Shown here one piece after another: positions 4,826-40,496 of a DNA stretch of 64,000 nt. Below the pieces are notes generated by a model. That model made no database searches. It was not told where the DNA came from and worked only from the letters and a program-made list of their open reading frames with translations. Each line of letters starts with the position of its first letter. Position 1 is the stretch's first letter. Made by a program: the position numbers and the translations under genes. The stretch is from assembly GCF_024223415.1 (NCBI RefSeq), contig NZ_CP100500.1; one strand, written 5' to 3'. Source of the stretch: Escherichia coli (GTDB lineage: Bacteria > Pseudomonadota > Gammaproteobacteria > Enterobacterales > Enterobacteriaceae).

Positions 4826-6415
4826 TTAATGCTCGCGGGTCTGGTGGAACTGAACGTCCGGATAACGTTCCTGCGCCAGGCGCAGATTGACCATGCTGGT
4901 AGCGATGTAAGCGAGGTTATCGCCGCCATCAAGCGCCAGTTGGCTTTCGTTCTTACGCTTGAACTCTTCGAATTTCTTCGCGTCCGCACATTCTACCCAC
5001 CGGGCGGTAGCAACGTTGACTGATTCATATACTGCTTCAACGTTGTATTCGCTCTTCAGGCGCGCTACCACCACATCAAACTGCAGCACACCAACCGCAC
5101 CAACGATCAGATCGTTGTTGGAGATTGGACGGAACACCTGCACCGCGCCCTCTTCGGAAAGCTGTACCAGCCCTTTGAGCAGCTGTTTTTGCTTCAGCGG
5201 ATCTTTCAGGCGGATACGACGGAACAGTTCTGGTGCGAAGTTCGGAATACCGGTGAACTTCATCATCTCACCCTGGGTAAAGGTGTCGCCGATCTGAATG
5301 GTGCCGTGGTTGTGCAGGCCGAGGATATCGCCCGGATACGCTTCTTCAACGTGCGAACGGTCACCCGCCATAAAGGTCAGCGCGTCGGAGATCACCACAT
5401 CTTTCGCAGTGCGCACCTGGCGCAGTTTCATGCCTTTTTCATATTTACCGGACACCACACGCATAAACGCCACGCGGTCGCGGTGTTTCGGGTCCATGTT
5501 GGCCTGAATTTTAAATACGAAGCCGGTAAATTTATCTTCGCTCGCTTCTACGGTACGGGTATCAGTCTGACGCGGCATCGGCGCAGGTGCCCACTCCACC
5601 AGGCCATCCAACATATGATCGACGCCGAAGTTACCCAGCGCAGTACCGAAGAATACCGGAGTGATTTCGCCCGCAAGGAACAGCTCTTTGTCGAACTCGT
5701 TAGACGCGCCTTTCACCAGTTCCAGTTCGTCACGCAGCTGCTGTGCCAGATCTTCACCAACCGCAGCATCGAGATCCGGGTTATTCAGCCCTTTAACAAT
5801 GCGGACTTCCTGAATAGTGTGCCCTTTACCGCTCTGATAGAGATAGGTTTCGTCTTTATAAAGGTGGTAAACGCCTTTAAACAGCTTGCCGCAGCCAATC
5901 GGCCAGGTGATCGGCGCACAGCCGATTTTCAGCTCGTTCTCAACTTCATCGAGCAGCTCCATCGGGTCGCGGATATCACGGTCAAGTTTGTTCATAAAGG
6001 TGAGGATCGGCGTGTCGCGCAGACGGGTAACTTCCATCAGCTTACGGGTACGATCTTCAACACCTTTTGCGGCGTCGATAACCATCAGGCAGCAGTCCAC
6101 CGCCGTCAGGGTACGATAGGTATCTTCCGAGAAGTCTTCGTGCCCCGGGGTGTCGAGCAGGTTAACCAGGCAATCGTGATACGGAAACTGCATCACAGAC
6201 GTAGTAATGGAGATCCCACGCTGCTTTTCCATCTCCATCCAGTCCGACTTAGCGTGCTGGTTGGAACCACGGCCTTTTACTGTACCGGCGGTCTGAATGG
6301 CCTGTCCGAACAGCAGCACCTTCTCGGTGATGGTAGTCTTACCGGCGTCCGGGTGAGAAATAATGGCAAAAGTGCGGCGCTTCGCCACCTCTTGCAAATA
6401 AGGAGACAACGTCAT
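4826..6415 (-). CDS. prfC: Peptide chain release factor 3 (GTPase)
   Basis: P-loop [12 protein letters not shown], translational GTPase architecture; start at [10 protein letters not shown] inside the 538-aa track ORF. Confidence 0.95.
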
Positions 6416-9170: not shown

Positions 9171-9340
<170 letters not shown>

Positions 9341-9391
9341 TCTCCTGATGAACATTTTTCCAGCAATTACATCTCCGGCGATAATTAACTA

Positions 9392-9419
9392 TTGACGAAA
9401 AGCTGAAAACCACTAGAAT
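9392..9419 (+). promoter_or_regulatory. Sigma70 promoter of the leuQPV tRNA operon
   Basis: TTGACG, 16-bp spacer, TAGAAT, followed by GC-rich discriminator gcgcctcc about 40 bp before the first tRNA. Confidence 0.6.
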
Positions 9420-9460: not shown

Positions 9461-9547
9461 GCGAAGGTGGCGGAATTGGTAGACGCGCTAGCTTCAGGTG
9501 TTAGTGTCCTTACGGACGTGGGGGTTCAAGTCCCCCCCCTCGCACCA
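9461..9547 (+). tRNA. leuQ: tRNA-Leu(CAG), copy 1
   Basis: 87 nt GCGAAGGTGGCGGAATTGGTAGACGCG...; anticodon loop CTTCAGGTG; T-arm GGGGGTTCAAGTCCCCC; encoded CCA. Confidence 0.95.
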
Positions 9548-9575
9548 AAAACCACGTTGATATTGCTCGCACTGG

Positions 9576-9662
9576 GCGAAGGTGGCGGAATTGGTAGACG
9601 CGCTAGCTTCAGGTGTTAGTGTTCTTACGGACGTGGGGGTTCAAGTCCCCCCCCTCGCACCA
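9576..9662 (+). tRNA. leuP: tRNA-Leu(CAG), copy 2
   Basis: Same 87-nt sequence with one substitution (gttcttacgg instead of gtccttacgg in the variable arm). Confidence 0.95.
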
Positions 9663-9696
9663 AACGAGGCGATATCAAAAAAAGTAAGATGACTGT

Positions 9697-9782
9697 GCGA
9701 AGGTGGCGGAATTGGTAGACGCGCTAGCTTCAGGTGTTAGTGTCCTTACGGACGTGGGGGTTCAAGTCCCCCCCTCGCACCA
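9697..9782 (+). tRNA. leuV: tRNA-Leu(CAG), copy 3
   Basis: Same sequence, but the C-run before the 3' acceptor strand has 7 C instead of 8 (86 nt). Confidence 0.9.
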
Positions 9783-9820
9783 ATTATCTTTACTTCCTTT
9801 CTTGTTGCTTCCCTGTTTTA

Positions 9821-10057
9821 TCATCCCTGCCTCAAATTCATTATCATCAGCATGATGCCAGCAATAAGCGCCAGGCACGATGGTAGCAAAATGTAATGCC
9901 GTAACTGTTTGTGATACAGCATCACCGGCGTCAATATCAATCCCATCAGAATGACAATCCGCCACTGATCCGGCGATAAATCCGCATACATCAGCCCTGC
10001 AATCAGCAATCCCGGCAGCAACACTCCCCAGCCACTGCCCAGCGTACGTTGCAACAT
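9821..10057 (-). CDS. yjjZ: Small inner-membrane protein YjjZ (78 aa)
   Basis: Hydrophobic ORF MLQRTLGSGWGVLLPGLLIAG...; start at the internal Met of the 115-aa track ORF; Fur boxes immediately upstream. Confidence 0.7.
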   Translation of the reverse strand: MLQRTLGSGWGVLLPGLLIAGLMYADLSPDQWRIVILMGLILTPVMLYHKQLRHYILLPSCLALIAGIMLMIMNLRQG

Positions 10058-10075
10058 GGTTTCATCTCTTTCATT

Positions 10076-10115
10076 GATAATGATAACCAATATCATATGA
10101 TAATTTTTATCATTT
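10076..10115. promoter_or_regulatory. Fur boxes in the yjjZ/fhuF divergent region
   Basis: gataatgataaccaatatcatatgataatttttatcattt contains overlapping GATAAT/ATCATT hexamers of the Fur consensus. Confidence 0.6.
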
Positions 10116-10164
10116 GCAAGCCAGAGAAATCCCTTGCTATCGGGTAAACCTATCGCTAGGATTA

Positions 10165-10180
10165 GCAATCATTATCATTT
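10165..10180. promoter_or_regulatory. Fur box proximal to fhuF
   Basis: gcaatcattatcattt matches the ATAATCATTATC core of the Fur consensus, about 20 bp before the fhuF ATG. Confidence 0.55.
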
Positions 10181-10197
10181 AGATTACTATCCCGATT

Positions 10198-10986
10198 ATG
10201 GCCTATCGTTCCGCACCGCTCTATGAAGATATCATCTGGCGAACGCATCTCCAGCCACAGGATGCTAGGCTTGCACAAGCCGTACGTGCGACGATCGCCG
10301 AACATCGTGAACATTTGCTGGAGTTTATCCGCCTGGATGAACCCGCTCCGCTTAACGCCATGACGCTGGCGCAATGGTCATCACCGAATGCGCTAAGTTC
10401 TCTACTCGCGGTCTATTCCGATCATATCTATCGCAACCAACCAACGATGATCCGCGAGAACAAACCGCTGATCTCACTATGGGCACAATGGTATATCGGC
10501 CTGATGGTGCCACCATTAATGCTGGCGCTACTGACGCAGGAAAAAGCATTAGATGTGTCGCCGGAACATTTCCATGCTGAGTTTCACGAAACCGGACGCG
10601 TCGCCTGTTTCTGGGTCGATGTGTGTGAAGATAAAAACGCAACACCACATTCGCCGCAGCAGCGAATGGAAACGTTAATCAGCCAGGCGCTGGTTCCGGT
10701 TGTGCAGACACTAGAAGCGACCGGAGAGATCAACGGCAAACTTATCTGGAGTAATACCGGTTATTTGATCAACTGGTATCTTACTGAGATGAAGCAACTG
10801 CTCGGCGAGGCGACGGTTGAATCGCTGCGCCATGCCCTCTTTTTTGAGAAAACGCTTACTACCGGTGAAGATAATCCACTCTGGCGTACCGTGGTGCTAC
10901 GCGACGGCCTGCTGGTGCGCCGCACTTGCTGCCAGCGTTATCGCTTACCGGATGTGCAGCAATGTGGCGATTGTACGCTGAAATGA
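10198..10986 (+). CDS. fhuF: Ferric-siderophore reductase FhuF (2Fe-2S)
   Basis: 262-aa ORF with C-terminal C-C-x10-C-x2-C cluster (CCQRYRLPDVQQCGDC). Confidence 0.9.
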   Translation: MAYRSAPLYEDIIWRTHLQPQDARLAQAVRATIAEHREHLLEFIRLDEPAPLNAMTLAQWSSPNALSSLLAVYSDHIYRNQPTMIRENKPLISLWAQWYIGLMVPPLMLALLTQEKALDVSPEHFHAEFHETGRVACFWVDVCEDKNATPHSPQQRMETLISQALVPVVQTLEATGEINGKLIWSNTGYLINWYLTEMKQLLGEATVESLRHALFFEKTLTTGEDNPLWRTVVLRDGLLVRRTCCQRYRLPDVQQCGDCTLK

Positions 10987-11023
10987 AAGCACTGCCGGGG
11001 AAGTAAACCCGGCATCATGCGGA

Positions 11024-11701
11024 TTAATAGGGATGCAACACATTACTTGCTTCGCAATGCCGCATACATAACAGAATATCTGCGGCCTCCAACAACCCTG
11101 CATCAGAACTGACGCCCAGTTTCGACATCACATTAAATTTATGTGCACGGATCGTTTTGATATTGCGTTTAAGCTGCTCGGCAATTTGTGTCATTGAGTA
11201 GCCACGCGACATAAAGCGCAATATTTCTCTCTCCGTCGGGCTTAACGTCCGGCTTTGGTTAATGTACCACTGATTGTTCAGTCGGTCGGTCGCCTGACGT
11301 ACACCATTTAATGACAAAAAGAGTTCCTGATGAAAAATCTCCAGCGTTGACGCTTTACTTAATACACCGTCCAGCGGTGATGGCGACAATGAACCAATCA
11401 GCCGAGCTTCAATATCATCATCCGCAATAACTAAACGCCGGGTACGCGGAAACTTAATCGCCAGTTCAGTCAGGCAAGATAATCCCTCTCTGCGCTCACT
11501 TCTCATGGCAGAAAAAGAAAAAATGACCGCCGCAAACGAGATCCGCGACATGGCATCCTGAAATGACTCCTGACTGGTATAGGTATGGAGCTTATAAGGG
11601 TTACCCGCAAACTTTCTGAATAAACTCTCAATACCGATACTACTCATGACGCATTTTTCTATGAGTGCGACATTTCTCTTCTTAATTCGGCTGTGTTCCA
11701 T
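11024..11701 (-). CDS. bglJ: LuxR-family transcriptional regulator BglJ
   Basis: 225-aa ORF with C-terminal LuxR-type HTH; overlaps the yjjQ 3' end. Confidence 0.85.
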
Positions 11702-12384
11702 TCTGCGGCATCTCCATAAACAGAAGGCAAGTTAAGTTCTCTTGCACCCTGCGCGCTATTTATCCATGCATACATTTCAGCGTTGCTGTGAATTGCCAGT
11801 CGACGCATCGCACTGTTTTTTTGGGCGCTGATAGTTTTATTACTTTTCTTAAGCAATGAAGCTATCTGGTTGATGCCCCATCCTTTACCTAATAGCCGCA
11901 GTACCTTGCGCTCTGAAAGAGTGAGAATGACGGAGCGATAGCTAAAATCATGAGTTTCAGTCATTGCCGGGGAGGTCAGCATGGCGCTGATACGCTCTGC
12001 GTGCGTATTGCCGGAACGTACGGTCTTGACCAGATTCTCAATGGGTTCAACATCAGACAATAACGTCGCCGTAGGGCACATGAGCAGTTCTACTGCCTGG
12101 GAATACCAGGAGCGTGACACCATGAAAACCCAGTGAATTTCCCGATATTGTGAGATTAAAGAATAATAATGTTCACAAACAGAACGTGGATCTTCACTTT
12201 CACCGGCTAAATCAGCAATGACTAATCCGGAACGACGTAATTGTAATAAGGTAAGGTCCTCCGCAGAGGCGCTGGATATTATTTCATATTCAGGGAAGTG
12301 AGTCCTCATGACCTCTTTTAACCCTGCTTGCATAACAGGTATTTTACTGATAACAATTCCATTTTTGCAGCATCCTGGCAACAT
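11659..12384 (-). CDS. yjjQ: LuxR-family transcriptional regulator YjjQ
   Basis: 241-aa ORF with C-terminal LuxR HTH ([22 protein letters not shown]); AT-rich. Confidence 0.85.
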
Positions 12385-13002
12385 ATTTCCTCCACATCCA
12401 CTGTCTAAAAATTATGATGGTTTATTCAGGATATTCATTCCTTAAATGTTTCCAGCAAATTAATAGATTAAGCGAATAAATTATCCTTAGCATTCACTTT
12501 CATATCAGCATACTCCTGCTGCACAACAACTCCACTGCATGTGTCAGAAGGTTAGCATCAAATGATAACCTGGTGAAATAGCCTGGAGACATTTAAAATA
12601 TCTACATTAAGTTGTTAGGAATACTTAATGAAAAACAGAAATCACATTCATTTAATTTATAATTAAATGATATCCCTTCCCGCAGAATGCAAAATCACAC
12701 AACCAATATTTATTCAATGAAATCTGATGGTTTTAGCTTGTTAACATTAAAAAACGTGCCCGGTTATCTATTATCCTGATTCGTAAAGGCCAAACAATAA
12801 ATTCATTATGATGATAATATTCATGTGATAGTTTGTTTGCGGCGAGAGATAATTCGCTTTTTATCACCGAGCTTCTCCCGATAACCAGGATTAATCAGCG
12901 CAATTTTGATCTTAACCTACCGCAAAACAACCGTGCTTCATGATACAAATGGATTCTCATTATCTGAACAATACGCAGCACGTCTATGACAAAGGGCGAG
13001 TT

Positions 13003-13773
13003 ATGCAAACTGAGCAACAGCGAGCCGTAACACGGCTTTGTATCCAGTGTGGATTATTTCTTTTGCAACATGGTGCGGAAAGCGCGTTGGTTGATGAGCT
13101 TTCCTCACGACTGGGTCGGGCACTGGGAATGGACAGCGTCGAAAGTTCTATCTCTTCGAACGCCATAGTGCTGACAACTATTAAAGATGGGCAATGCCTG
13201 ACATCGACACGTAAAAATCACGATCGCGGCATTAATATGCATGTGGTGACTGAAGTCCAGCACATTGTGATTCTTGCGGAGCATCATCTGCTGGATTACA
13301 AAGGCGTAGAGAAACGATTTAGCCAAATTCAGCCATTACGTTACCCAAGATGGCTGGTAGCCTTAATGGTTGGCCTTTCTTGCGCCTGTTTCTGTAAACT
13401 CAATAACGGTGGCTGGGATGGTGCCGTCATCACCTTCTTTGCCAGTACGACCGCGATGTATATCCGCCAGCTGCTGGCACAACGTCATCTTCATCCACAG
13501 ATCAACTTTTGCCTTACCGCTTTCGCCGCCACCACCATTTCCGGATTGCTTTTGCAACTCCCCACTTTCAGCAATACCCCCACCATTGCGATGGCCGCCA
13601 GCGTTCTGCTGCTAGTGCCGGGCTTTCCGTTGATTAATGCCGTCGCCGATATGTTTAAAGGCCACATCAATACCGGACTGGCACGCTGGGCGATCGCCAG
13701 TCTGCTGACACTGGCTACCTGCGTCGGCGTAGTGATGGCACTGACGATTTGGGGGCTACGCGGATGGGTGTGA
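13003..13773 (+). CDS. yjjP: Inner membrane protein YjjP (ThrE family)
   Basis: Start at ATG 13003 ([12 protein letters not shown]) inside the 277-aa track ORF; multi-pass membrane protein. Confidence 0.85.
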
Positions 13774-14237
13774 TCGAATTTCTGTTAGCGTTGGCGCAGG
13801 ATATGATCCTCGCCGCCATTCCTGCGGTCGGCTTTGCGATGGTTTTCAACGTTCCCGTGCGGGCGTTACGCTGGTGTGCGCTGCTTGGCTCGATAGGTCA
13901 TGGTTCCCGAATGATCTTGATGACCAGCGGGTTGAATATTGAGTGGTCAACCTTTATGGCTTCGATGCTGGTCGGTACCATTGGTATTCAATGGTCGCGC
14001 TGGTATCTGGCGCATCCGAAAGTGTTTACCGTGGCGGCCGTTATCCCTATGTTCCCGGGCATATCGGCTTATACCGCAATGATTTCGGCGGTAAAAATCA
14101 GCCAGTTAGGTTACAGCGAACCGTTGATGATTACCCTGTTAACCAACTTTCTTACAGCTTCATCGATTGTTGGTGCGTTATCCATCGGTCTTTCCATTCC
14201 TGGATTATGGTTGTACCGCAAGCGCCCTCGCGTATAA
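13764..14237 (+). CDS. yjjB: Inner membrane protein YjjB
   Basis: Hydrophobic 157-aa ORF; start at ATG 13764 overlapping the yjjP 3' end. Confidence 0.85.
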
Positions 14238-14343
14238 AATTGCCTCGCTTAAGCACACGGATGAGAGACAGCCTCCTCTCCTCCGTGTGTTACTATAAAA
14301 GTTATCTCCCTTCTCGTTCATCGTTCCATATTTGAGAAACAGT

Positions 14344-14883
14344 ATGTCTTCCAGAGTTTTGACCCCGGACGTCGTTGGTATTGACGCCCTGGTACACGAT
14401 CACCAAACCGTTCTGGCAAAAGCTGAAGGCGGTGTGGTTGCCGTATTTGCTAACAATGCCCCGGCGTTTTATGCCGTCACGCCTGCACGCCTGGCTGAAC
14501 TGCTGGCGCTGGAAGAAAAGCTGGCGCGTCCGGGAAGCGATGTCGCTCTGGACGATCAACTCTATCAGGAACCGCAAGCCGCTCCCGTTGCTGTACCCAT
14601 GGGGAAATTCGCCATGTATCCGGACTGGCAACCCGATGCCGATTTTATCCGCCTGGCGGCGCTATGGGGCGTGGCGCTAAGAGAGCCGGTGACCACCGAA
14701 GAACTGGCCTCATTCATTGCCTACTGGCAGGCGGAAGGTAAAGTCTTTCACCATGTGCAGTGGCAACAAAAACTGGCGCGCAGCCTGCAAATCGGTCGTG
14801 CCAGCAACGGCGGACTGCCGAAACGAGATGTGAATACGGTCAGTGAACCTGACAGCCAAATTCCACCAGGATTCAGAGGGTAA
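14344..14883 (+). CDS. dnaT: Primosomal protein DnaT
   Basis: 179-aa [23 protein letters not shown]...; immediately upstream of dnaC. Confidence 0.9.
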
Positions 14884-14885
14884 CG

Positions 14886-15623
14886 ATGAAAAACGTTGGC
14901 GACCTGATGCAACGCCTGCAAAAAATGATGCCTGCCCATATCAAACCTGCATTCAAAACGGGTGAAGAGCTACTGGCCTGGCAGAAAGAACAAGGGGCGA
15001 TCCGCTCCGCCGCTCTCGAACGTGAAAATCGGGCGATGAAAATGCAGCGCACCTTTAACCGCTCCGGTATTCGTCCACTGCATCAGAACTGCTCCTTTGA
15101 GAACTATCGCGTTGAGTGTGAAGGGCAGATGAATGCGTTAAGCAAAGCGCGCCAGTATGTCGAAGAGTTTGACGGCAACATCGCCAGCTTCATCTTTTCT
15201 GGTAAGCCAGGAACCGGCAAAAACCATCTGGCGGCGGCAATCTGCAACGAGCTGCTGCTACGCGGTAAATCCGTATTGATCATCACCGTGGCCGATATTA
15301 TGTCGGCGATGAAAGATACCTTCAGGAATAGCGGAACCAGCGAAGAACAACTGCTTAACGATCTGAGCAACGTTGATCTGCTGGTGATCGATGAGATCGG
15401 CGTGCAGACCGAATCGAAATACGAAAAAGTGATCATCAACCAGATCGTCGATCGCCGCTCTTCTTCCAAACGCCCAACCGGGATGCTGACCAACAGTAAT
15501 ATGGAAGAGATGACCAAGTTGCTGGGCGAACGCGTGATGGACCGTATGCGCCTGGGTAACAGTTTGTGGGTGATCTTCAACTGGGATAGCTACCGTAGCC
15601 GTGTAACAGGTAAAGAGTATTAA
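14886..15623 (+). CDS. dnaC: Helicase loader DnaC (AAA+ ATPase)
   Basis: 245-aa ORF with Walker A GKPGTGKNHLAAA and Walker B LLVIDEIG. Confidence 0.95.
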   Translation: MKNVGDLMQRLQKMMPAHIKPAFKTGEELLAWQKEQGAIRSAALERENRAMKMQRTFNRSGIRPLHQNCSFENYRVECEGQMNALSKARQYVEEFDGNIASFIFSGKPGTGKNHLAAAICNELLLRGKSVLIITVADIMSAMKDTFRNSGTSEEQLLNDLSNVDLLVIDEIGVQTESKYEKVIINQIVDRRSSSKRPTGMLTNSNMEEMTKLLGERVMDRMRLGNSLWVIFNWDSYRSRVTGKEY

Positions 15624-15671
15624 TCCCCGTTTCTGGCGGTATACTGCGACACAATTCCACCTTGAGTAATG

Positions 15672-16166
15672 ATGATGAAAACTGTTAAACATCTTCTGTG
15701 CTGTGCCATTGCCGCCAGCGCATTAATTTCCACCGGGGTGCATGCTGCGTCCTGGAAAGATGCGCTCTCCAGCGCCGCCAGCGAACTTGGCAACCAAAAC
15801 AGCACGACACAGGAAGGCGGTTGGTCGCTCGCGTCATTAACTAACTTGCTTAGCAGCGGAAACCAGGCCTTAAGCGCAGATAACATGAACAATGCCGCAG
15901 GCATTCTGCAATACTGCGCGAAGCAAAAGCTGGCTTCGGTAACCGATGTCGAAAACATCAAGAACCAGGTGCTGGAAAAGCTGGGCCTGAACAGTGAAGA
16001 GCAAAAAGAAGACACCAACTATCTGGACGGCATTCAGGGTTTGCTGAAAACCAAAGATGGTCAGCAACTCAATCTGGATAACATCGGAACAACTCCGCTG
16101 GCAGAAAAGGTGAAAACCAAAGCCTGCGATCTGGTGTTAAAACAGGGGCTGAACTTCATTTCCTGA
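15672..16166 (+). CDS. yjjA: Secreted protein YjjA (DUF2501)
   Basis: ORF with N-terminal signal peptide (…ISTGVHA); three consecutive ATG, so the start is ambiguous by one or two codons. Confidence 0.8.
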   Translation: MMKTVKHLLCCAIAASALISTGVHAASWKDALSSAASELGNQNSTTQEGGWSLASLTNLLSSGNQALSADNMNNAAGILQYCAKQKLASVTDVENIKNQVLEKLGLNSEEQKEDTNYLDGIQGLLKTKDGQQLNLDNIGTTPLAEKVKTKACDLVLKQGLNFIS

Positions 16167-16419
16167 ACCGCGAAACGCCGCGTTTTAGCTGTTACCCGGC
16201 TGACGCGGCTCTCTCCTGCCCTTTTCCCTGCTCCTGGACGGTTTTCCCCCTGTTACACGGGAAGCGACCGCGATCAAAAAAGTCTGTTTATAAACTAATT
16301 CCTAACAACATCGCATTTTTTTGACACTAGAATTGCAGCAATATGGCGACGCCATTACATTGTGCTTCTCAAAAAGCTTAAACGTTGGCTAAACGGCCCG
16401 GTTTAGTGAGGATCGCCCG

Positions 16420-18711
16420 TTGTCAGAACTACTCTCTTTCGCCCTTTTTCTCGCCTCTGTGCTGATTTACGCATGGAAAGCGGGACGTAACACCTGGTGG
16501 TTTGCAGCCACATTAACGGTGCTGGGGCTATTTGTCGTTTTAAATATCACCCTGTTTGCCAGCGACTATTTTACTGGCGATGGTATTAACGACGCGGTTC
16601 TCTATACCTTAACCAACAGCCTGACCGGTGCTGGCGTCAGCAAATACATCCTGCCGGGTATCGGCATTGTGCTGGGGCTGACGGCGGTGTTCGGTGCGCT
16701 GGGCTGGATCCTGCGCCGTCGTCGTCATCATCCGCACCATTTTGGTTACAGCCTGCTGGCGCTCTTACTGGCGCTGGGTTCGGTGGACGCCAGCCCGGCA
16801 TTTCGTCAGATAACGGAACTGGTGAAATCCCAGTCACGCGATGGCGACCCGGACTTTGCGGCTTATTATAAAGAGCCGTCGAAAACTATCCCAGACCCGA
16901 AACTCAACCTGGTTTATATCTACGGCGAAAGTCTCGAGCGGACCTATTTTGATAACGAAGCTTTCCCGGATCTCACGCCTGAACTGGGCGCGTTGAAAAA
17001 TGAAGGCCTGGATTTCAGCCACACGCAGCAGCTGCCAGGAACGGATTACACGATTGCGGGCATGGTGGCTTCTCAGTGCGGCATACCGCTGTTTGCCCCC
17101 TTTGAAGGCAACGCCTCCGCTTCTGTTTCCAGCTTCTTCCCGCAGAACATCTGTCTGGGCGATATCCTGAAAAACTCGGGTTATCAGAACTATTTCGTGC
17201 AGGGCGCAAATCTGCGTTTTGCCGGTAAAGATGTGTTCCTGAAATCGCACGGCTTCGATCACTTATACGGCTCAGAAGAGCTGAAAAGCGTGGTGGCCGA
17301 CCCGCACTATCGCAACGACTGGGGATTCTACGACGATACCGTTCTCGATGAAGCGTGGAAAAAGTTTGAAGAGCTTTCCCGTTCTGGTCAGCGATTCTCA
17401 CTGTTTACCCTGACAGTCGATACCCATCACCCGGATGGTTTTATCTCTCGTACCTGTAACCGCAAAAAATATGATTTTGACGGTAAACCGAATCAGTCAT
17501 TCAGCGCGGTAAGTTGCAGCCAGGAGAATATCGCGACGTTTATCAACAAAATCAAAGCGTCACCGTGGTTTAAAGATACTGTCATCGTCGTCTCTTCTGA
17601 CCATTTAGCGATGAACAACACGGCGTGGAAATACCTCAATAAGCAGGATCGCAATAACCTGTTTTTTGTCATTCGTGGCGACAAGCCGCAGCAAGAGACG
17701 CTGGCAGTGAAGCGTAACACGATGGATAACGGCGCGACGGTGCTGGACATTCTCGGTGGCGATAACTATCTCGGACTTGGTCGTAGCAGTTTATCCGGGC
17801 AGTCGATGTCGGAAATCTTCCTCAATATCAAAGAGAAAACATTGGCGTGGAAGCCAGATATCATCCGCCTGTGGAAATTCCCTAAAGAGATGAAAGAGTT
17901 CACCATCGACCAGCAGAAAAACATGATTGCCTTCTCGGGTAGCCATTTCCGTTTGCCGCTGCTGTTGCGGGTTTCAGACAAACGCGTGGAACCGCTGCCG
18001 GAAAGCGAATACTCAGCACCGCTGCGTTTCCAGCTGGCCGATTTCGCTCCACGCGACAATTTCGTCTGGGTTGACCGTTGCTACAAGATGGCACAACTCT
18101 GGGCTCCGGAACTGGCACTTTCCACCGACTGGTGTGTCTCGCAGGGGCAACTTGGCGGTCAGCAAATTGTTCAGCATGTTGACAAAACAACATGGAAGAG
18201 CAAGACGGCATTTAAAGATACGGTCATCGACATGGCGCGTTACAAAGGCAATGTCGATACGCTGAAGATTGTTGATAACGATATTCGCTACAAAGCCGAC
18301 AGTTTCATCTTTAACGTCGCCGGTGCGCCAGAAGAGGTGAAACAGTTTAGCGGGATTTCCCGTCCGGAGTCGTGGGGCCGCTGGTCCAACGCGCAGCTGG
18401 GCGATGAAGTAAAAATCGAGTACAAGCATCCGCTGCCGAAGAAATTTGACCTGGTGATTACCGCCAAAGCATACGGCAATAACGCCAGCCGTCCTATTCC
18501 GGTACGCGTAGGCAATGAAGAACAAACTCTTGTGCTGGGCAATGAAGTGACCACCACCACACTGCATTTCGATAACCCAACCGATGCCGACACACTGGTA
18601 ATTGTGCCGCCGGAACCTGTCTCAACCAACGAAGGGAATATCCTCGGACACTCGCCGCGTAAGCTCGGGATCGGCATGGTGGAAATTAAAGTGGTAGAAC
18701 GTGAAGGGTAA
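16420..18711 (+). CDS. opgB: Phosphoglycerol transferase I (sulfatase family)
   Basis: 763-aa ORF with N-terminal TM segments and sulfatase-type domain; apparent TTG start. Confidence 0.9.
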
Positions 18712-18723
18712 TTCCTGACTGAT

Positions 18724-18752
18724 GTGTAGGTCGCATAGGGTGCGACCTACAC
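18724..18752. repeat. Perfect 12-bp inverted repeat hairpin after opgB
   Basis: gtgtaggtcgca-taggg-tgcgacctacac; no downstream T-run, so more REP-like than an intrinsic terminator. Confidence 0.5.
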
Positions 18753-18847
18753 ACCTTCTCCGGCTTACAACACATTATTAAGAAACAAAAAAACAGCGCC
18801 CAACACTTCCCCGGACGCTGCATGGCAACTTTAATAATCTCGCCTTA

Positions 18848-19870
18848 TCAGAAAGTAATTACGCCTTTAATTAACTCACGATTGTTAATCACATCGCGCT
18901 CGTAGGTTTCTGCCAGCGTGGCGAACGGATAGCGATGGGTTAACATCATGTCAGCAGTGATTTTTCCTTCCGCCATCAGTCGACCGACTTTAGCAAAATC
19001 TTCCGGCGTGGCGTTGCGGCTGCCCATCATCGTCGTTTCTTTTTTATGGAATTCCGGATCGGAGAACTGCAACTCACCTTTAAACAGGCCGACAAATACC
19101 ACCGTGCCGCCGTGACGAATCAGATTCACGGTGTTATTCATCGCATGTTGATTACCTGTCGCGTCGATCACTTTCTGCGCCAGCGAACCACCAAACTGCG
19201 CCCGCAGCTGCGCGTCAAAATCTTCGGCTGACGGGTCCAGCACGGGCAACTCCAGACGCGTTGCCACATGTTCACGGCGCGCCGGACTGGTATCCGCCAC
19301 CACCACCTGTGCGCCATCGGCTTTAGCGATTGCCGCCGCGCCCAGACCGATTGGCCCCGCCCCGACCACCAGCACCTGCTCGCCGGGAGCAATGGCTGCG
19401 CGACGCACCGCATGAGCGCTAATAGCGAAAGGTTCAATCAATGCGGCCGCCTGCGGGTCAATACCGTCTGCGGGCAAAATGTTCGCCACCGGCACGCTCA
19501 AATACTCACTAAAACCGCCATCCTGATGCACGCCAATGACTGAAATTTTTTCACAGCAATTGGTACGCCCGCTTTTACACGCCGGGCATTGCTGACAGGC
19601 AACATAAGGGATCACAGCAACTTGCTGACCATTTTTAAGATCAGCAATATTTTTACCCAGCCCAACAATCTCCCCACATATTTCATGGCCTAAAACCCGT
19701 GGATAACTAAAAAATGGTTGATTTCCACCCCAGGCATGAATATCGGTACCGCAAATCCCGACAGACTTAATTTTTATTAATGCTTCATTGTCACCCGGAA
19801 TAGGTATCTCGCGTTGTTTCCAGACTAATTCTTTCGGCTGCTGGCAAATTAAAACATTCATCGTAGACAT
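18848..19870 (-). CDS. lgoD: Zn-dependent L-galactonate 5-dehydrogenase
   Basis: MDR-family alcohol dehydrogenase signatures (GHEICGEIV, Rossmann GAGPIGLG); start at internal ATG (MSTMNVLI). Confidence 0.85.
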   Translation of the reverse strand: MSTMNVLICQQPKELVWKQREIPIPGDNEALIKIKSVGICGTDIHAWGGNQPFFSYPRVLGHEICGEIVGLGKNIADLKNGQQVAVIPYVACQQCPACKSGRTNCCEKISVIGVHQDGGFSEYLSVPVANILPADGIDPQAAALIEPFAISAHAVRRAAIAPGEQVLVVGAGPIGLGAAAIAKADGAQVVVADTSPARREHVATRLELPVLDPSAEDFDAQLRAQFGGSLAQKVIDATGNQHAMNNTVNLIRHGGTVVFVGLFKGELQFSDPEFHKKETTMMGSRNATPEDFAKVGRLMAEGKITADMMLTHRYPFATLAETYERDVINNRELIKGVITF

Positions 19871-20008
19871 GATTCGGCTCTCCATTTTTTGTTGCCTTAG
19901 ATATCAATGAAAATGAAAAATGGCAGCGGAACGGAAAATCTGTTTTGTGAAAACACACGCATAAAAATGTTTTAAATCGGGTTTTAATGGACTCACAAGG
20001 AGGAAAAT

Positions 20009-20923
20009 ATGAGTCGTTCACAAAATTTACGCCACAATGTGATTAACCAGGTCATTGATGATATGGCGCGGGGTCATATCCCTTCCCCACTTCCATCGCA
20101 AAGTGCGCTGGCGGAAATGTACAACATCAGCCGCACTACAGTGCGTCATATTCTCAGCCACTTACGCGAATGCGGCGTCTTAACGCAGGTTGGAAACGAC
20201 TATGTTATTGCGCGTAAACCTGACCATGATGACGGTTTCGCCTGCACTACCGCTTCAATGAGTGAACAAAACAAAGTGTTTGAGCAGGCTTTTTTCACGA
20301 TGATAAACCAGCGTCAGTTACGCCCTGGGGAAACTTTTTCTGAACTGCAACTGGCTCGGGCCGCGGGTGTCAGCCCGGTGGTTGTAAGAGAATATCTTTT
20401 AAAATTCGGCCGTTATAATCTTATTCAAAGCGAAAAGCGCGGCCAGTGGAGCATGAAGCAATTCGATCAATCCTACGCCGAGCAGCTGTTTGAGCTACGC
20501 GAAATGCTCGAAACACATTCACTTCAGCACTTTCTCAACCTGCCTGATCATGATCCCCGCTGGCTGCAGGCGAAAACCATGCTCGAACGTCATCGGCTAC
20601 TGCGTGACAACATCGGCAATAGCTTTCGCATGTTCTCGCAACTTGACAGAGATTTTCACTCCTTACTGCTTTCAGCTGCCGACAATATCTTTTTTGATCA
20701 ATCGCTTGAGATCATCTCAGTCATCTTTCATTTTCACTATCAATGGGACGAAAGCGATCTTAAACAGCGCAATATCATTGCCGTCGATGAGCATATGACC
20801 ATTCTCAGCGCTCTGATTTGCCGCAGTGACCTTGATGCCACCCTTGCGCTCCGTAACCATTTGAATTCAGCGAAACAATCAATGATTCGGTCCATTAATG
20901 AGAACACGCGTTATGCTCATTAA
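20009..20923 (+). CDS. lgoR: GntR-family regulator of L-galactonate catabolism
   Basis: 304-aa ORF with N-terminal GntR-type wHTH; divergent from lgoD. Confidence 0.85.
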   Translation: MSRSQNLRHNVINQVIDDMARGHIPSPLPSQSALAEMYNISRTTVRHILSHLRECGVLTQVGNDYVIARKPDHDDGFACTTASMSEQNKVFEQAFFTMINQRQLRPGETFSELQLARAAGVSPVVVREYLLKFGRYNLIQSEKRGQWSMKQFDQSYAEQLFELREMLETHSLQHFLNLPDHDPRWLQAKTMLERHRLLRDNIGNSFRMFSQLDRDFHSLLLSAADNIFFDQSLEIISVIFHFHYQWDESDLKQRNIIAVDEHMTILSALICRSDLDATLALRNHLNSAKQSMIRSINENTRYAH

Positions 20924-21137
20924 GTACGGATTAAAAACAGCAAACTATTAGCGGGTGCACGGTTTTATCAAAAGATAAATACCGGGAAATTCCCGCTTAC
21001 CTATGCTCACAATCAGTCGACTAAAAATGTTTTTGTGAGCGGTAGTAAAGTCCTAAAACTTTAACCTGCCGTTAATGTCAACCTTGCGTAATGCACAATT
21101 ACGTAAACAATTAAAATTATAAATACAGGAGTCCGGC

Positions 21138-39551: not shown

Positions 39552-40496
39552 TTAGTACTCGATCCATGGATCGCGCTTGCTTTCAGGCAAGGGTTGCTCT
39601 AATGCCTGCATTTGCTCTGCCGAAAGTCCAGTATATCGTTGTATCCATTCAGGATCCGCACCGTTCTGCAAAAGCAATCTAAGGAGGCGTTGTTCCCCTT
39701 CTTCTTTCCCCTTTTCCATCCCTAACAGCCATCCATCATTATGAATTCGCTCTGCAATCGTCATTATTCGCTCCCTGTGTTGTGGCATTCGACTGGTTAG
39801 TTCGCTGATAAACTCTTTAAAACTCGCTTCATCGCCAGCCAGTAAAATGTAATTTAACAGCGCGGTTATCTGGCTGTCATTAGCGCACCCTGTAACCAGT
39901 AATACTGCCAGTTGATCAATAAGCCCCATTAGATCGCGCTGGCGAATATGCTTTTGGATCAACTCCAACAGGGCGACTCTGCGGTGCTGCACAATCTCGT
40001 CGTCTGGCACGACAGTGATATCCACCAGCGGGAACGCGGCATTATAAAGTTTCCGTGCGGTAGTCGGGTCGGCAAATTCGTCCAGCCAGCACAGGGACCA
40101 GGGGTAAGGACTACGGCTACCGTGATAAAACAGCATCGGGATGACCAGCGGTAGCTGCCGGCGTTTATCATGCTCGATATGGCGCTGCATCACCGCCATG
40201 GAATAGCGCATCAGGCGAAAGGCCATATGAATATCCTCACGGCTCTGATGTTCAATCACCACATAAATATAGCCATCGCCTTCGCGGGTCTTTACCGACC
40301 ACAGAATATCGGAATGTAGCGCCCGCAATTTTTCATCGACAAAGCTGGCGGATTCCAGTTTTAAGCTGTCGAGATCGCACAGTTCCCGTAAATCTTTAGG
40401 TAAGTGGATCTCCATAAAATCCCGCGCGGTGTCAGGGTGCATGAGAAAGGATTTAAATAATGCGTCATGCGGCGTGCTGGTCGTGAAGTTTGTCAT
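39552..40496 (-). CDS. rpnD: Rpn-family recombination-promoting nuclease (YhgA-like)
   Basis: 314-aa ORF with N-terminal HDALFKSF... and VVIEHQS PD-(D/E)xK-like core typical of Rpn/YhgA; intact reading frame. Confidence 0.75.

What the first reader, a model, noticed from the sequence alone, without database searches (positions are those of the whole stretch)
9461..9782. Three tandem tRNA-Leu(CAG) genes are not identical
Copy 2 has a C-to-T change in the variable arm (gttcttacgg), and copy 3 has 7 instead of 8 C in the run preceding the 3' acceptor strand. This could be true paralog divergence or a homopolymer sequencing error. The operon has a strong upstream TTGACG-N16-TAGAAT promoter.
Basis: seen in the sequence. 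Interest (0 to 1): 0.2.

Follow-up and report, generated by a model that had tools for sequence, protein, structure and literature searches.

The report
E. coli leuQPV tRNA-Leu operon variant
This is the well-known E. coli operon of three tandem leucine-tRNA genes; the middle gene's one-base difference is the normal ancient allele, and the last gene has lost one C from an eight-C run, most likely a real but ordinary strain-private slippage mutation at a site where database genomes are often mis-sequenced.

Summary
The window holds the E. coli leuQ-leuP-leuV operon (tRNA-Leu, anticodon CAG) between rsmC and yjjZ/fhuF. From the TTGACG-N16-TAGAAT promoter onward it is identical to K-12 except for one missing C.

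The C-to-T change in copy 2 is the normal K-12 leuP allele. At least 4,841 of 5,426 complete E. coli genomes carry it, and the C-T-C order is kept in the three-copy arrays of many enterobacterial genera. It turns a C-G pair into U-G in the variable arm.

The 7-C run in copy 3 (leuV) is private to this strain; all its closest relatives have 8 C. Two lines of evidence pull in opposite directions.
- For an artefact: 7-C calls are common in deposited genomes, often in several copies at once, including K-12 derivatives.
- For a real deletion: independent Logan contigs of run SRR19977205, the same strain with 18.1 kb and no differences, also read 7 C at leuV only. One contig starts exactly where a k=31 graph predicts for C7 at leuV and C8 elsewhere.

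I judge a real one-base slippage deletion most likely (about 0.78) and an artefact about 0.2. If real, the tRNA is 86 nt with a six-pair, bulged acceptor stem and is probably a weakened or dead copy among four redundant genes. Low interest.

The parts
9392..9419 (+). leuQPV promoter: -35 TTGACG (9392-9397), 16-nt spacer, -10 TAGAAT (9414-9419), followed by a G+C-rich stretch GCGCCTCC
   Evidence: Consensus scan gives 10 of 12 matches. The sequence is 100% identical to K-12 upstream of leuQ. That the G+C-rich stretch acts as a stringent-control discriminator is established knowledge for tRNA and rRNA promoters, not tested here.
9461..9547 (+). leuQ, tRNA-Leu(CAG) copy 1, 87 nt, C8 run at 9532-9539, encoded CCA
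   Evidence: ARAGORN; Rfam RF00005 48.5 bits; identical to K-12 leuQ.
9548..9575 (+). leuQ-leuP spacer (28 nt), cut by RNase P at the leuP 5' end
   Evidence: Identical to K-12. RNase-P-only processing of this operon is shown in PMC2190699.
9576..9662 (+). leuP, tRNA-Leu(CAG) copy 2, 87 nt, with T at 9623 (tRNA position 48, variable-arm stem: C48-G55 becomes U48-G55)
   Evidence: Same T in K-12 leuP. T-type leuP region in 4,841 of 5,426 genomes. C-T-C order in 19 of 23 three-copy loci across genera. The cloverleaf is 2.9 kcal/mol weaker.
9663..9696 (+). leuP-leuV spacer (34 nt)
   Evidence: Identical to K-12.
9697..9782 (+). leuV, tRNA-Leu(CAG) copy 3, 86 nt: C7 run (9768-9774) instead of C8. 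One base is missing from the 3' acceptor strand opposite A5.
   Evidence: 40.8 bits, with the deletion placed opposite A5. It is the only indel against four close relatives in window 1-45,000. C7 is reproduced in the Logan contig of SRR19977205.
9783..9820 (+). leuV 3' trailer, with no intrinsic terminator; convergent yjjZ ends at 9821
   Evidence: No +-strand terminator-like site was found. PMC2190699 states that an unstructured Rho-dependent terminator follows leuV.

Best explanation
The region is the E. coli leuQ-leuP-leuV operon. One strong sigma-70 promoter drives a tricistronic precursor of three tRNA-Leu(CAG) (tRNA-Leu1) genes. RNase P alone cuts the precursor into single pre-tRNAs, and a Rho-dependent terminator ends it (known from the literature).

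The T in copy 2 is the ordinary, ancient leuP allele. It is a structure-preserving C-G to U-G change in the variable-arm stem.

The missing C in copy 3 is most likely a real, recent one-base deletion private to this strain, made by replication slippage in the C8 tract. That tract spans the 3' strand of the T stem (5 C) and the start of the 3' acceptor strand (3 C).

Inferred consequence: the 86-nt product loses the C that normally faces A5 as an A-C mismatch. The acceptor stem then becomes six pairs with A5 bulged, and the acceptor/T-arm stack is one position shorter. Such a tRNA is probably poorly processed or poorly used, so leuV would be a weakened or dead copy. The cell tolerates this because leuQ, leuP and leuT encode the same tRNA.

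Shown: the identity of the operon, the allele states, their population frequencies, and read-derived support. Inferred: the slippage origin and the loss of function.
For: Identity:
- Synteny rsmC - three tRNA-Leu - yjjZ - fhuF, as in K-12.
- 100% identity to K-12 from the promoter to beyond leuV, except one C.

leuP T:
-.

leuV C7 private:
- Four nearest genomes all have C8/C8/C8, and the C deletion is the only indel in 45 kb.
- On the same 3' flank haplotype, 257 genomes have C8, 5 have C7 and none has C9.

Real rather than artefact:
- The window's FhuF (A171T) and YjiM (E213K) are private alleles.
- Exact-protein look-ups lead to Logan contigs of SRR19977205 that are 11,242/11,242 and 6,884/6,884 identical to the window. 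They include C7 at leuV, the private SNPs, and a second private C-run deletion (C6 to C5 at 45697) plus a TTTTTA unit loss.
- The Logan contig begins at window 9745, exactly where my k=31 de Bruijn simulation puts the unitig start if leuV is C7 and other copies are C8. With C8 at leuV it would start 10 bases later.
- Only leuV is shortened, although leuQ has the same 71 nt upstream and 9 nt downstream of the run. A context-driven systematic error should hit all copies, as it does in the artefact genomes.
- Phylogenetic nesting is coherent. Sister assembly GCA_044079975.1 shares three private SNPs, lacks the fourth (20890), and reads C8 next to the leuV flank.

Structure:
- Rfam drops from 48.5 to 40.8 bits.
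- The cloverleaf with A5 bulged is -29.5 against -30.0 kcal/mol for wild type.
- Total length of 87 nt is kept in 170 of 177 copies across Enterobacterales.
Against: - This homopolymer is a proven hotspot for technical miscalls. C7 appears in copy 1 in 177 complete genomes and in copy 2 in 141. At least 60 genomes have both (about 4.6 expected if independent). K-12 derivatives are deposited as C7/C7/C7 (C600, ER1709) or with C9 (ER2796, a re-sequenced MG1655).
- A PacBio-only E. coli assembly carries about 37 residual indels, mostly G/C-homopolymer deletions (PMC8574707). That is about 0.5 per 64 kb, which would fit one or two such events in this window.
- I could not learn the sequencing platform of SRR19977205.
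- That run may be the very read set behind the window's assembly. The agreement would then show the deletion is in the reads, not that two samples agree.
- I could inspect only one informative Logan contig. The second (SRR19977217) starts inside the C run, and similar contigs were hidden by the tool's de-duplication.
- The sister assembly's array is collapsed to one copy, so its C8 is weak evidence.
- Loss of function is inferred, not measured.
Confidence: 0.78

Rival explanations
1. The 7-C run is a sequencing or consensus artefact: a homopolymer undercall in the reads or assembly. The strain really has the normal C8 leuV, so all three genes are as in K-12.
For: - C-run miscalls at these tRNA genes are frequent in deposited complete genomes and cluster within assemblies: 177 and 141 genomes, at least 60 with both.
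- Direct counts include K-12 derivatives and genomes with C6, C9, C10 and C12.
- The expected residual-error density of long-read-only assemblies, mostly G/C-run deletions, fits one or two events per 64 kb (PMC8574707).
- The C8 runs are the longest G/C homopolymers in the window.
- The window has a second private C-run contraction at 45697.
Against: - A read-derived k=31 assembly (Logan SRR19977205) of the same strain reproduces C7 at leuV. It also reproduces the second C-run deletion, with zero differences over 18.1 kb.
- Its contig boundary matches the C7-specific graph prediction.
- Contigs of 7 to 30 kb that are perfectly identical argue for accurate reads.
- leuQ and leuP, in identical sequence context, are C8.
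- All other runs of 7 or more in the window agree with relatives. In the 45.9-46.3 kb region, where run lengths differ from SCU-316, it is SCU-316 and not the window that disagrees with the other three genomes.
Confidence: 0.19
2. The culture or sample was mixed, with a 7-C subpopulation arising during growth. Alternatively, the three near-identical copies were mis-joined, so that the C7 belongs to another copy or to no fixed genotype.
For: Tandem 87-nt repeats are hard for short-read assemblers. The sister assembly collapses the array to one copy. A re-sequenced MG1655 shows C instead of T in leuP, which suggests cross-copy polishing effects in some deposits.
Against: In the Logan contig, single 31-mers contain both the complete C7 run and the leuV-specific flank. 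The contig runs on leftwards past the run without a branch, so no abundant C8+leuV-flank k-mers were present. The window's spacers and flanks are collinear with K-12 and with four relatives.
Confidence: 0.03

Closest known systems
E. coli K-12 leuQ-leuP-leuV operon (b4370, b4369, b4368; tRNA-Leu1, anticodon CAG)
   Same: Same neighbours (rsmC upstream, yjjZ and fhuF downstream), same promoter, same spacers, same leuQ, and the same leuP including the variable-arm T. Identity is 100% from the promoter to past leuV apart from one base. The processing mode (RNase P only, Rho-dependent terminator) is taken from PMC2190699.
   Different: leuV has C7 instead of C8, so it is 86 rather than 87 nt. The window also has an extra REP-like unit between rsmC and the promoter.
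Homopolymer-length miscalls in deposited long-read assemblies (for example C600 CM181231, ER1709 CP030240, strain 504239 CP025859)
   Same: The same site and the same apparent one-C loss in a tRNA-Leu(CAG) gene.
   Different: In those genomes several copies are shortened together, sometimes with other run lengths (C6, C9-C12). Here one copy only is affected, and the change is reproduced in an independent k-mer assembly of reads.
Morganellaceae-type tRNA-Leu(CAG) (Photorhabdus, Xenorhabdus, Morganella): C7 followed by TT
   Same: A seven-C run at the same place.
   Different: There the eighth position is a U that pairs with A5, so it is a substitution. The tRNA is still 87 nt with a full 7-bp acceptor stem. 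In the window the position is absent.

Membership tests
tRNA (Rfam RF00005), type II tRNA-Leu(CAG) | Cloverleaf recognised above the curated threshold, with anticodon CAG | tested here: met
   ARAGORN finds three tRNA-Leu(cag) genes. Rfam scores are 48.5, 48.5 and 40.8 bits against a gathering score of 29.
tRNA (Rfam RF00005), type II tRNA-Leu(CAG) | Long variable arm with its own stem-loop | tested here: met
   A 12-nt insertion at the variable region in the Rfam alignment. A 4-bp stem, G46-C57 to C49-G54, was used in the cloverleaf evaluation. Copy 2 keeps it as U48-G55.
tRNA (Rfam RF00005), type II tRNA-Leu(CAG) | Seven-position acceptor stem stacked on a 5-bp T stem; discriminator A73 and encoded CCA | tested here: not met
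   This status applies to copy 3. Copies 1 and 2 meet the feature, with six pairs plus an A5-C68 mismatch. Copy 3 has one position missing, giving six pairs with A5 bulged or a 4-bp T stem. A73 and CCA are present in all three.
E. coli leuQPV operon | Three tandem tRNA-Leu(CAG) genes between rsmC and yjjZ/fhuF with the K-12 promoter and spacers | tested here: met
   Annotated relatives and K-12; alignment to K-12; promoter scan.
E. coli leuQPV operon | Middle gene (leuP) carries U in the variable-arm stem; outer genes carry C | tested here: met
   The window is C-T-C, as are K-12 and 12 of the 13 other E. coli loci I counted. 19 of 23 three-copy loci across genera are also C-T-C.
E. coli leuQPV operon | Transcription as one precursor, RNase P-only processing, aminoacylation of all three products | not testable with these tools
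   Known for K-12 from PMC2190699. No expression data exist for this strain.
Homopolymer sequencing artefact | The same miscall appears in the other identical-context copies of the same assembly | tested here: not met
   The window is C8/C8/C7. Artefact genomes are typically C7/C7/C7 or mixed.
Homopolymer sequencing artefact | Not reproduced by an independent assembly from reads | tested here: not met
   The Logan SRR19977205 contig has C7 at leuV and the predicted graph boundary. The platform of that run is unknown, so this is strong but not final.
Homopolymer sequencing artefact | Other unexplained homopolymer indels nearby in the same assembly | tested here: inconclusive
   There is one further private C-run deletion at 45697, but it too is present in the Logan contig. 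All other runs of 7 or more match relatives.

The most novel reading that the evidence does not exclude
The C8 tract was created in Enterobacteriaceae when U68 became C. It may act as a slippage-prone site that repeatedly switches individual tRNA-Leu(CAG) gene copies off, or alters them, in natural lineages. On this reading the leuV C7 allele here, and some of the single-copy C7 calls in other genomes such as the two ST38-like isolates, are real events. They might be tolerated or even selected to tune the dosage of the most-used leucine tRNA. The window's strain might also have passed through a mutator phase, given its private changes: six transitions plus three repeat or homopolymer indels.
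Probability: 0.07. Interest if true: 0.45.

Novelty: already known. Interest (0 to 1): 0.12.

Why it matters
Biologically it matters little. The operon, its promoter and the leuP variant are textbook E. coli, and losing one of four redundant tRNA-Leu(CAG) genes by a slippage deletion is an ordinary kind of strain-level decay.

The practical lesson is about data quality. The C8 run in these tRNA genes is miscalled in a few percent of 'complete' RefSeq E. coli genomes, often in several copies at once, and the annotation pipeline still labels the 85-, 86- and 88-nt products as tRNA-Leu. Single-base differences in tRNA genes taken from assemblies therefore need read-level support. Here such support could be obtained indirectly, and it points to a real deletion.

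Tried and rejected
- Minimum-free-energy folding of the three tRNAs did not recover the cloverleaf for any copy, so it says nothing. I replaced it with explicit evaluation of the cloverleaf.
I revised this after the Logan contigs.
- The scan of species-representative genomes did not find the window's source. It served instead for cross-species conservation.
- Exact look-ups of the window's pentapeptide-repeat protein with two start codons found nothing. The YjiM allele worked instead.
- A wider flank did not expose the 13 similar contigs hidden by de-duplication. I therefore could not see leuV in the 5.56-Mb sister chromosome or in the other Logan runs.
- A paper search for the SRR and GCA identifiers found nothing, so the platform and project remain unknown.
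- The collapsed array in GCA_044079975.1 (C8) was considered as evidence of the ancestral state but given little weight.
- I checked whether 28Eco12 and Nord58 (copy 3 only C7) show an inherited allele. They are two sporadic cases within a lineage where at least 58 other genomes have C8, so this decides nothing.

Full report
**What is there**

ARAGORN finds three tRNA-Leu(CAG) genes on the + strand. Rfam's tRNA model scores them 48.5, 48.5 and 40.8 bits against a gathering score of 29. By homology the genes are 9461-9547, 9576-9662 and 9697-9782. Aligning them shows exactly two differences:
- T instead of C at tRNA position 48 of copy 2 (window 9623).
- A C7 run in copy 3 (9768-9774) where the others have C8.

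The promoter TTGACG-N16-TAGAAT is at 9392-9419.

**Identity**

The window is E. coli chromosome. The closest complete genomes (SCU-316, O78 strain 3, FDAARGOS_1250, NCTC10444) are about 99.98% identical and annotate rsmC, three tRNA-Leu genes, yjjZ and fhuF at this place. K-12 MG1655 has the same arrangement, named leuQ, leuP and leuV in transcription order.

From the promoter to beyond the third gene the window is 100% identical to K-12, except for the missing C. For K-12 it has been shown that this operon is transcribed as one precursor. RNase P alone, without RNase E, separates the precursor, and an unstructured Rho-dependent terminator follows leuV (PMC2190699). Consistent with that, I found no intrinsic terminator downstream on the + strand.

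**The T in copy 2**

K-12 leuP has the same T.
- An exact 89-nt match to T + C8 + this spacer occurs in 3,402 complete genomes, and the T-type leuP region occurs in 4,841 of 5,426.
- Only about 138 genomes have a C-type tRNA in front of the leuP-leuV spacer. These include the O55:H7 lineage and ETEC H10407.
- In one genome per species across Enterobacterales, 19 of 23 three-copy loci have the order C-T-C. Examples are E. albertii, Salmonella arizonae, Citrobacter, Klebsiella oxytoca and Raoultella.

The change turns C48-G55 into U48-G55 in the variable-arm stem. The pair is kept, at a cost of 2.9 kcal/mol. This is old, conserved and already-known paralog divergence.

**The missing C in copy 3: evidence for an artefact**

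The allele is rare and private.
- All four nearest genomes are C8/C8/C8.
- Among genomes with the same 3' flank, 257 have C8, 5 have C7 and none has C9.

The same apparent deletion is common in deposits.
- Copy 1 is C7 in 177 genomes and copy 2 in 141.
- A query with C7 in both returned at least 60 genomes whose best piece has the E-value of a perfect 179-nt match. Independence predicts about 4.6.

Direct counts show clear artefacts.
- K-12 derivatives C600 and ER1709 are C7/C7/C7.
- ER2796 and a re-sequenced MG1655 have C9 at leuV.
- Strain 504239 is C7/C7/C7, and LS45 is C8/C6/C7.

Across species, 170 of 177 copies are exactly 87 nt. The deviants include an assembly with C10/C9/C12. A published analysis found 37 residual indels in a PacBio-only E. 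coli assembly: 29 deletions, 32 in homopolymers and 25 of those in G/C runs (PMC8574707). That is about 0.5 per 64 kb. The tRNA C8 runs are the longest G/C runs in this window. On base rates alone an artefact looked likely.

**The missing C in copy 3: evidence that it is real**

Against four relatives, the C deletion is the only indel in the first 45 kb. It is accompanied by private transitions at 5816, 10708, 20245 and 20890. The 10708 change makes FhuF A171T a private protein allele.

An exact-sequence look-up found 16 contigs that carry this allele. One, from the Logan assembly of run SRR19977205, is 11,242/11,242 identical to window 9745-20986. It includes the three private SNPs in range and reads seven C joined to the leuV-specific flank.

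I simulated a k=31 de Bruijn graph of the locus.
- With C7 at leuV and C8 elsewhere, the unitig holding the leuV flank must start at window 9745 with CTTACGGACG. This is exactly what is observed.
- With C8 at leuV it would start 10 bases further on.
- The contig continues leftwards past the run without a branch, so k-mers joining C8 to the leuV flank were absent or negligible.

A second private allele, YjiM E213K, is carried by only two contigs on record, both from Logan. The one from SRR19977205 is 6,884/6,884 identical to window 39632-46515. It reproduces a second private C-run deletion (C6 to C5 at 45697), the loss of one TTTTTA unit (45565) and two more private SNPs. I had found all of these by comparison with four relatives.

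In the same region, SCU-316 and not the window is the outlier at five other homopolymer runs (T6, C9, A11, A4 and T4 in SCU-316). The window's assembly therefore does not generally compress homopolymers.

Sister assembly GCA_044079975.1 shares three private SNPs, keeps the ancestral base at 20890, and reads C8 next to the leuV flank. Its array is collapsed to one copy, which weakens that point.

Finally, leuQ has the same 71 nt upstream and 9 nt downstream of the run yet is C8. A context-driven error should not single out leuV.

**Weighing the evidence**

The deletion is in the reads of at least one run of this strain. Those reads behave like accurate ones: contigs of 7 to 30 kb, perfectly identical, breaking where a k=31 graph should break. 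What I cannot exclude is that the run used a platform with a peculiar homopolymer bias. It may also be the same read set that produced the window, so the agreement may not be independent at the level of the sample.

I put a real one-base slippage deletion at about 0.78, an artefact at about 0.19, and a mixture or mis-join at about 0.03.

**Likely consequence (inferred)**

In the normal tRNA the eight C form the 3' strand of the T stem (five) and the first three positions of the 3' acceptor strand. The third of these faces A5 as a non-standard pair, which Rfam marks. In Morganellaceae that position is U and pairs with A5 (C7 followed by TT, still 87 nt).

With seven C, the covariance model deletes the base opposite A5. 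The best cloverleaf has six acceptor pairs with A5 bulged, at -29.5 against -30.0 kcal/mol. Folding stability is therefore hardly touched, but the acceptor/T-arm stack is one position short. ARAGORN can restore a 7-bp stem only by pairing the base before the 5' end with the discriminator.

Enzymes and factors that measure this stack are RNase P, EF-Tu and the ribosome. They would be expected to handle such a tRNA poorly (general knowledge, not tested). Three other genes (leuQ, leuP and leuT) encode the same tRNA, so the cost of losing leuV should be small.

**Novelty and interest**

Nothing here is a new kind of element. The operon and the leuP variant are known, and the leuV allele is a private variant of an ordinary kind. 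Interest is low (0.12).

The useful by-product is a caution. The C-run of tRNA-Leu(CAG) genes is wrong in a few percent of complete E. coli genomes in RefSeq.

Noticed in passing
window 45560-48500: A hypervariable gene and its upstream region. An intact 789-aa pentapeptide-repeat protein (46122-48491, +; Pfam PF00805, 2e-35) contains three in-frame tandem arrays: 6 nt x 8.3, 18 nt x 9.6 and 24 nt x 10.9. Repeat copy numbers differ among all five close genomes compared. SCU-316 has C9, A11 and other run changes and is annotated as frameshifted there. The window alone has C5 at 45697 and one TTTTTA unit fewer at 45565; both are confirmed in the Logan contig.
   Followed up: partly
not in the window: leuQ, leuP and leuV in RefSeq complete E. 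coli genomes (for example L007, L012, L013, L014, L015): Data-quality issue. The C8 run of tRNA-Leu(CAG) genes is deposited as C7 in copy 1 (177 genomes) and copy 2 (141), with at least 60 genomes having both. C6, C9, C10 and C12 are also seen. Affected genomes include the K-12 derivatives C600, ER1709, ER2796 and a re-sequenced MG1655, which also has C instead of T in leuP. All are still annotated as tRNA-Leu.
   Followed up: yes
window 9200-9345: REP/BIME-like palindromic units between rsmC and the leuQ promoter. The window has an extra unit of about 31 nt relative to K-12 (the repeat CTTATCCGAC-TACAAAACCTGCACGTTAG occurs twice).
   Followed up: no
window 9461-9782, and L016-L135: The C8 tract exists because position 68 is C in Enterobacteriaceae, giving an A5-C68 mismatch in the acceptor stem. 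Morganellaceae (Photorhabdus, Xenorhabdus, Morganella) keep U68, a normal A5-U68 pair and only C7. In several genera the single-copy locus also carries the T variant of the variable arm.
   Followed up: partly
E. coli complete genomes, leuQPV locus: About 580 of 5,426 genomes gave no match to the leuP-type query, and some hits are annotated with only two tRNA-Leu genes. This suggests copy-number variation of the tandem array, either by loss of one repeat unit or by divergent spacers.
   Followed up: no
window 5816, 10708, 20245, 20890, 45587, 46146: All six private SNPs that could be polarised against four relatives are transitions. They come with three private repeat or homopolymer indels (leuV C, 45697 C, 45565 TTTTTA). 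This is a weak hint of elevated slippage or a past mutator phase. The sample is too small to conclude anything.
   Followed up: no
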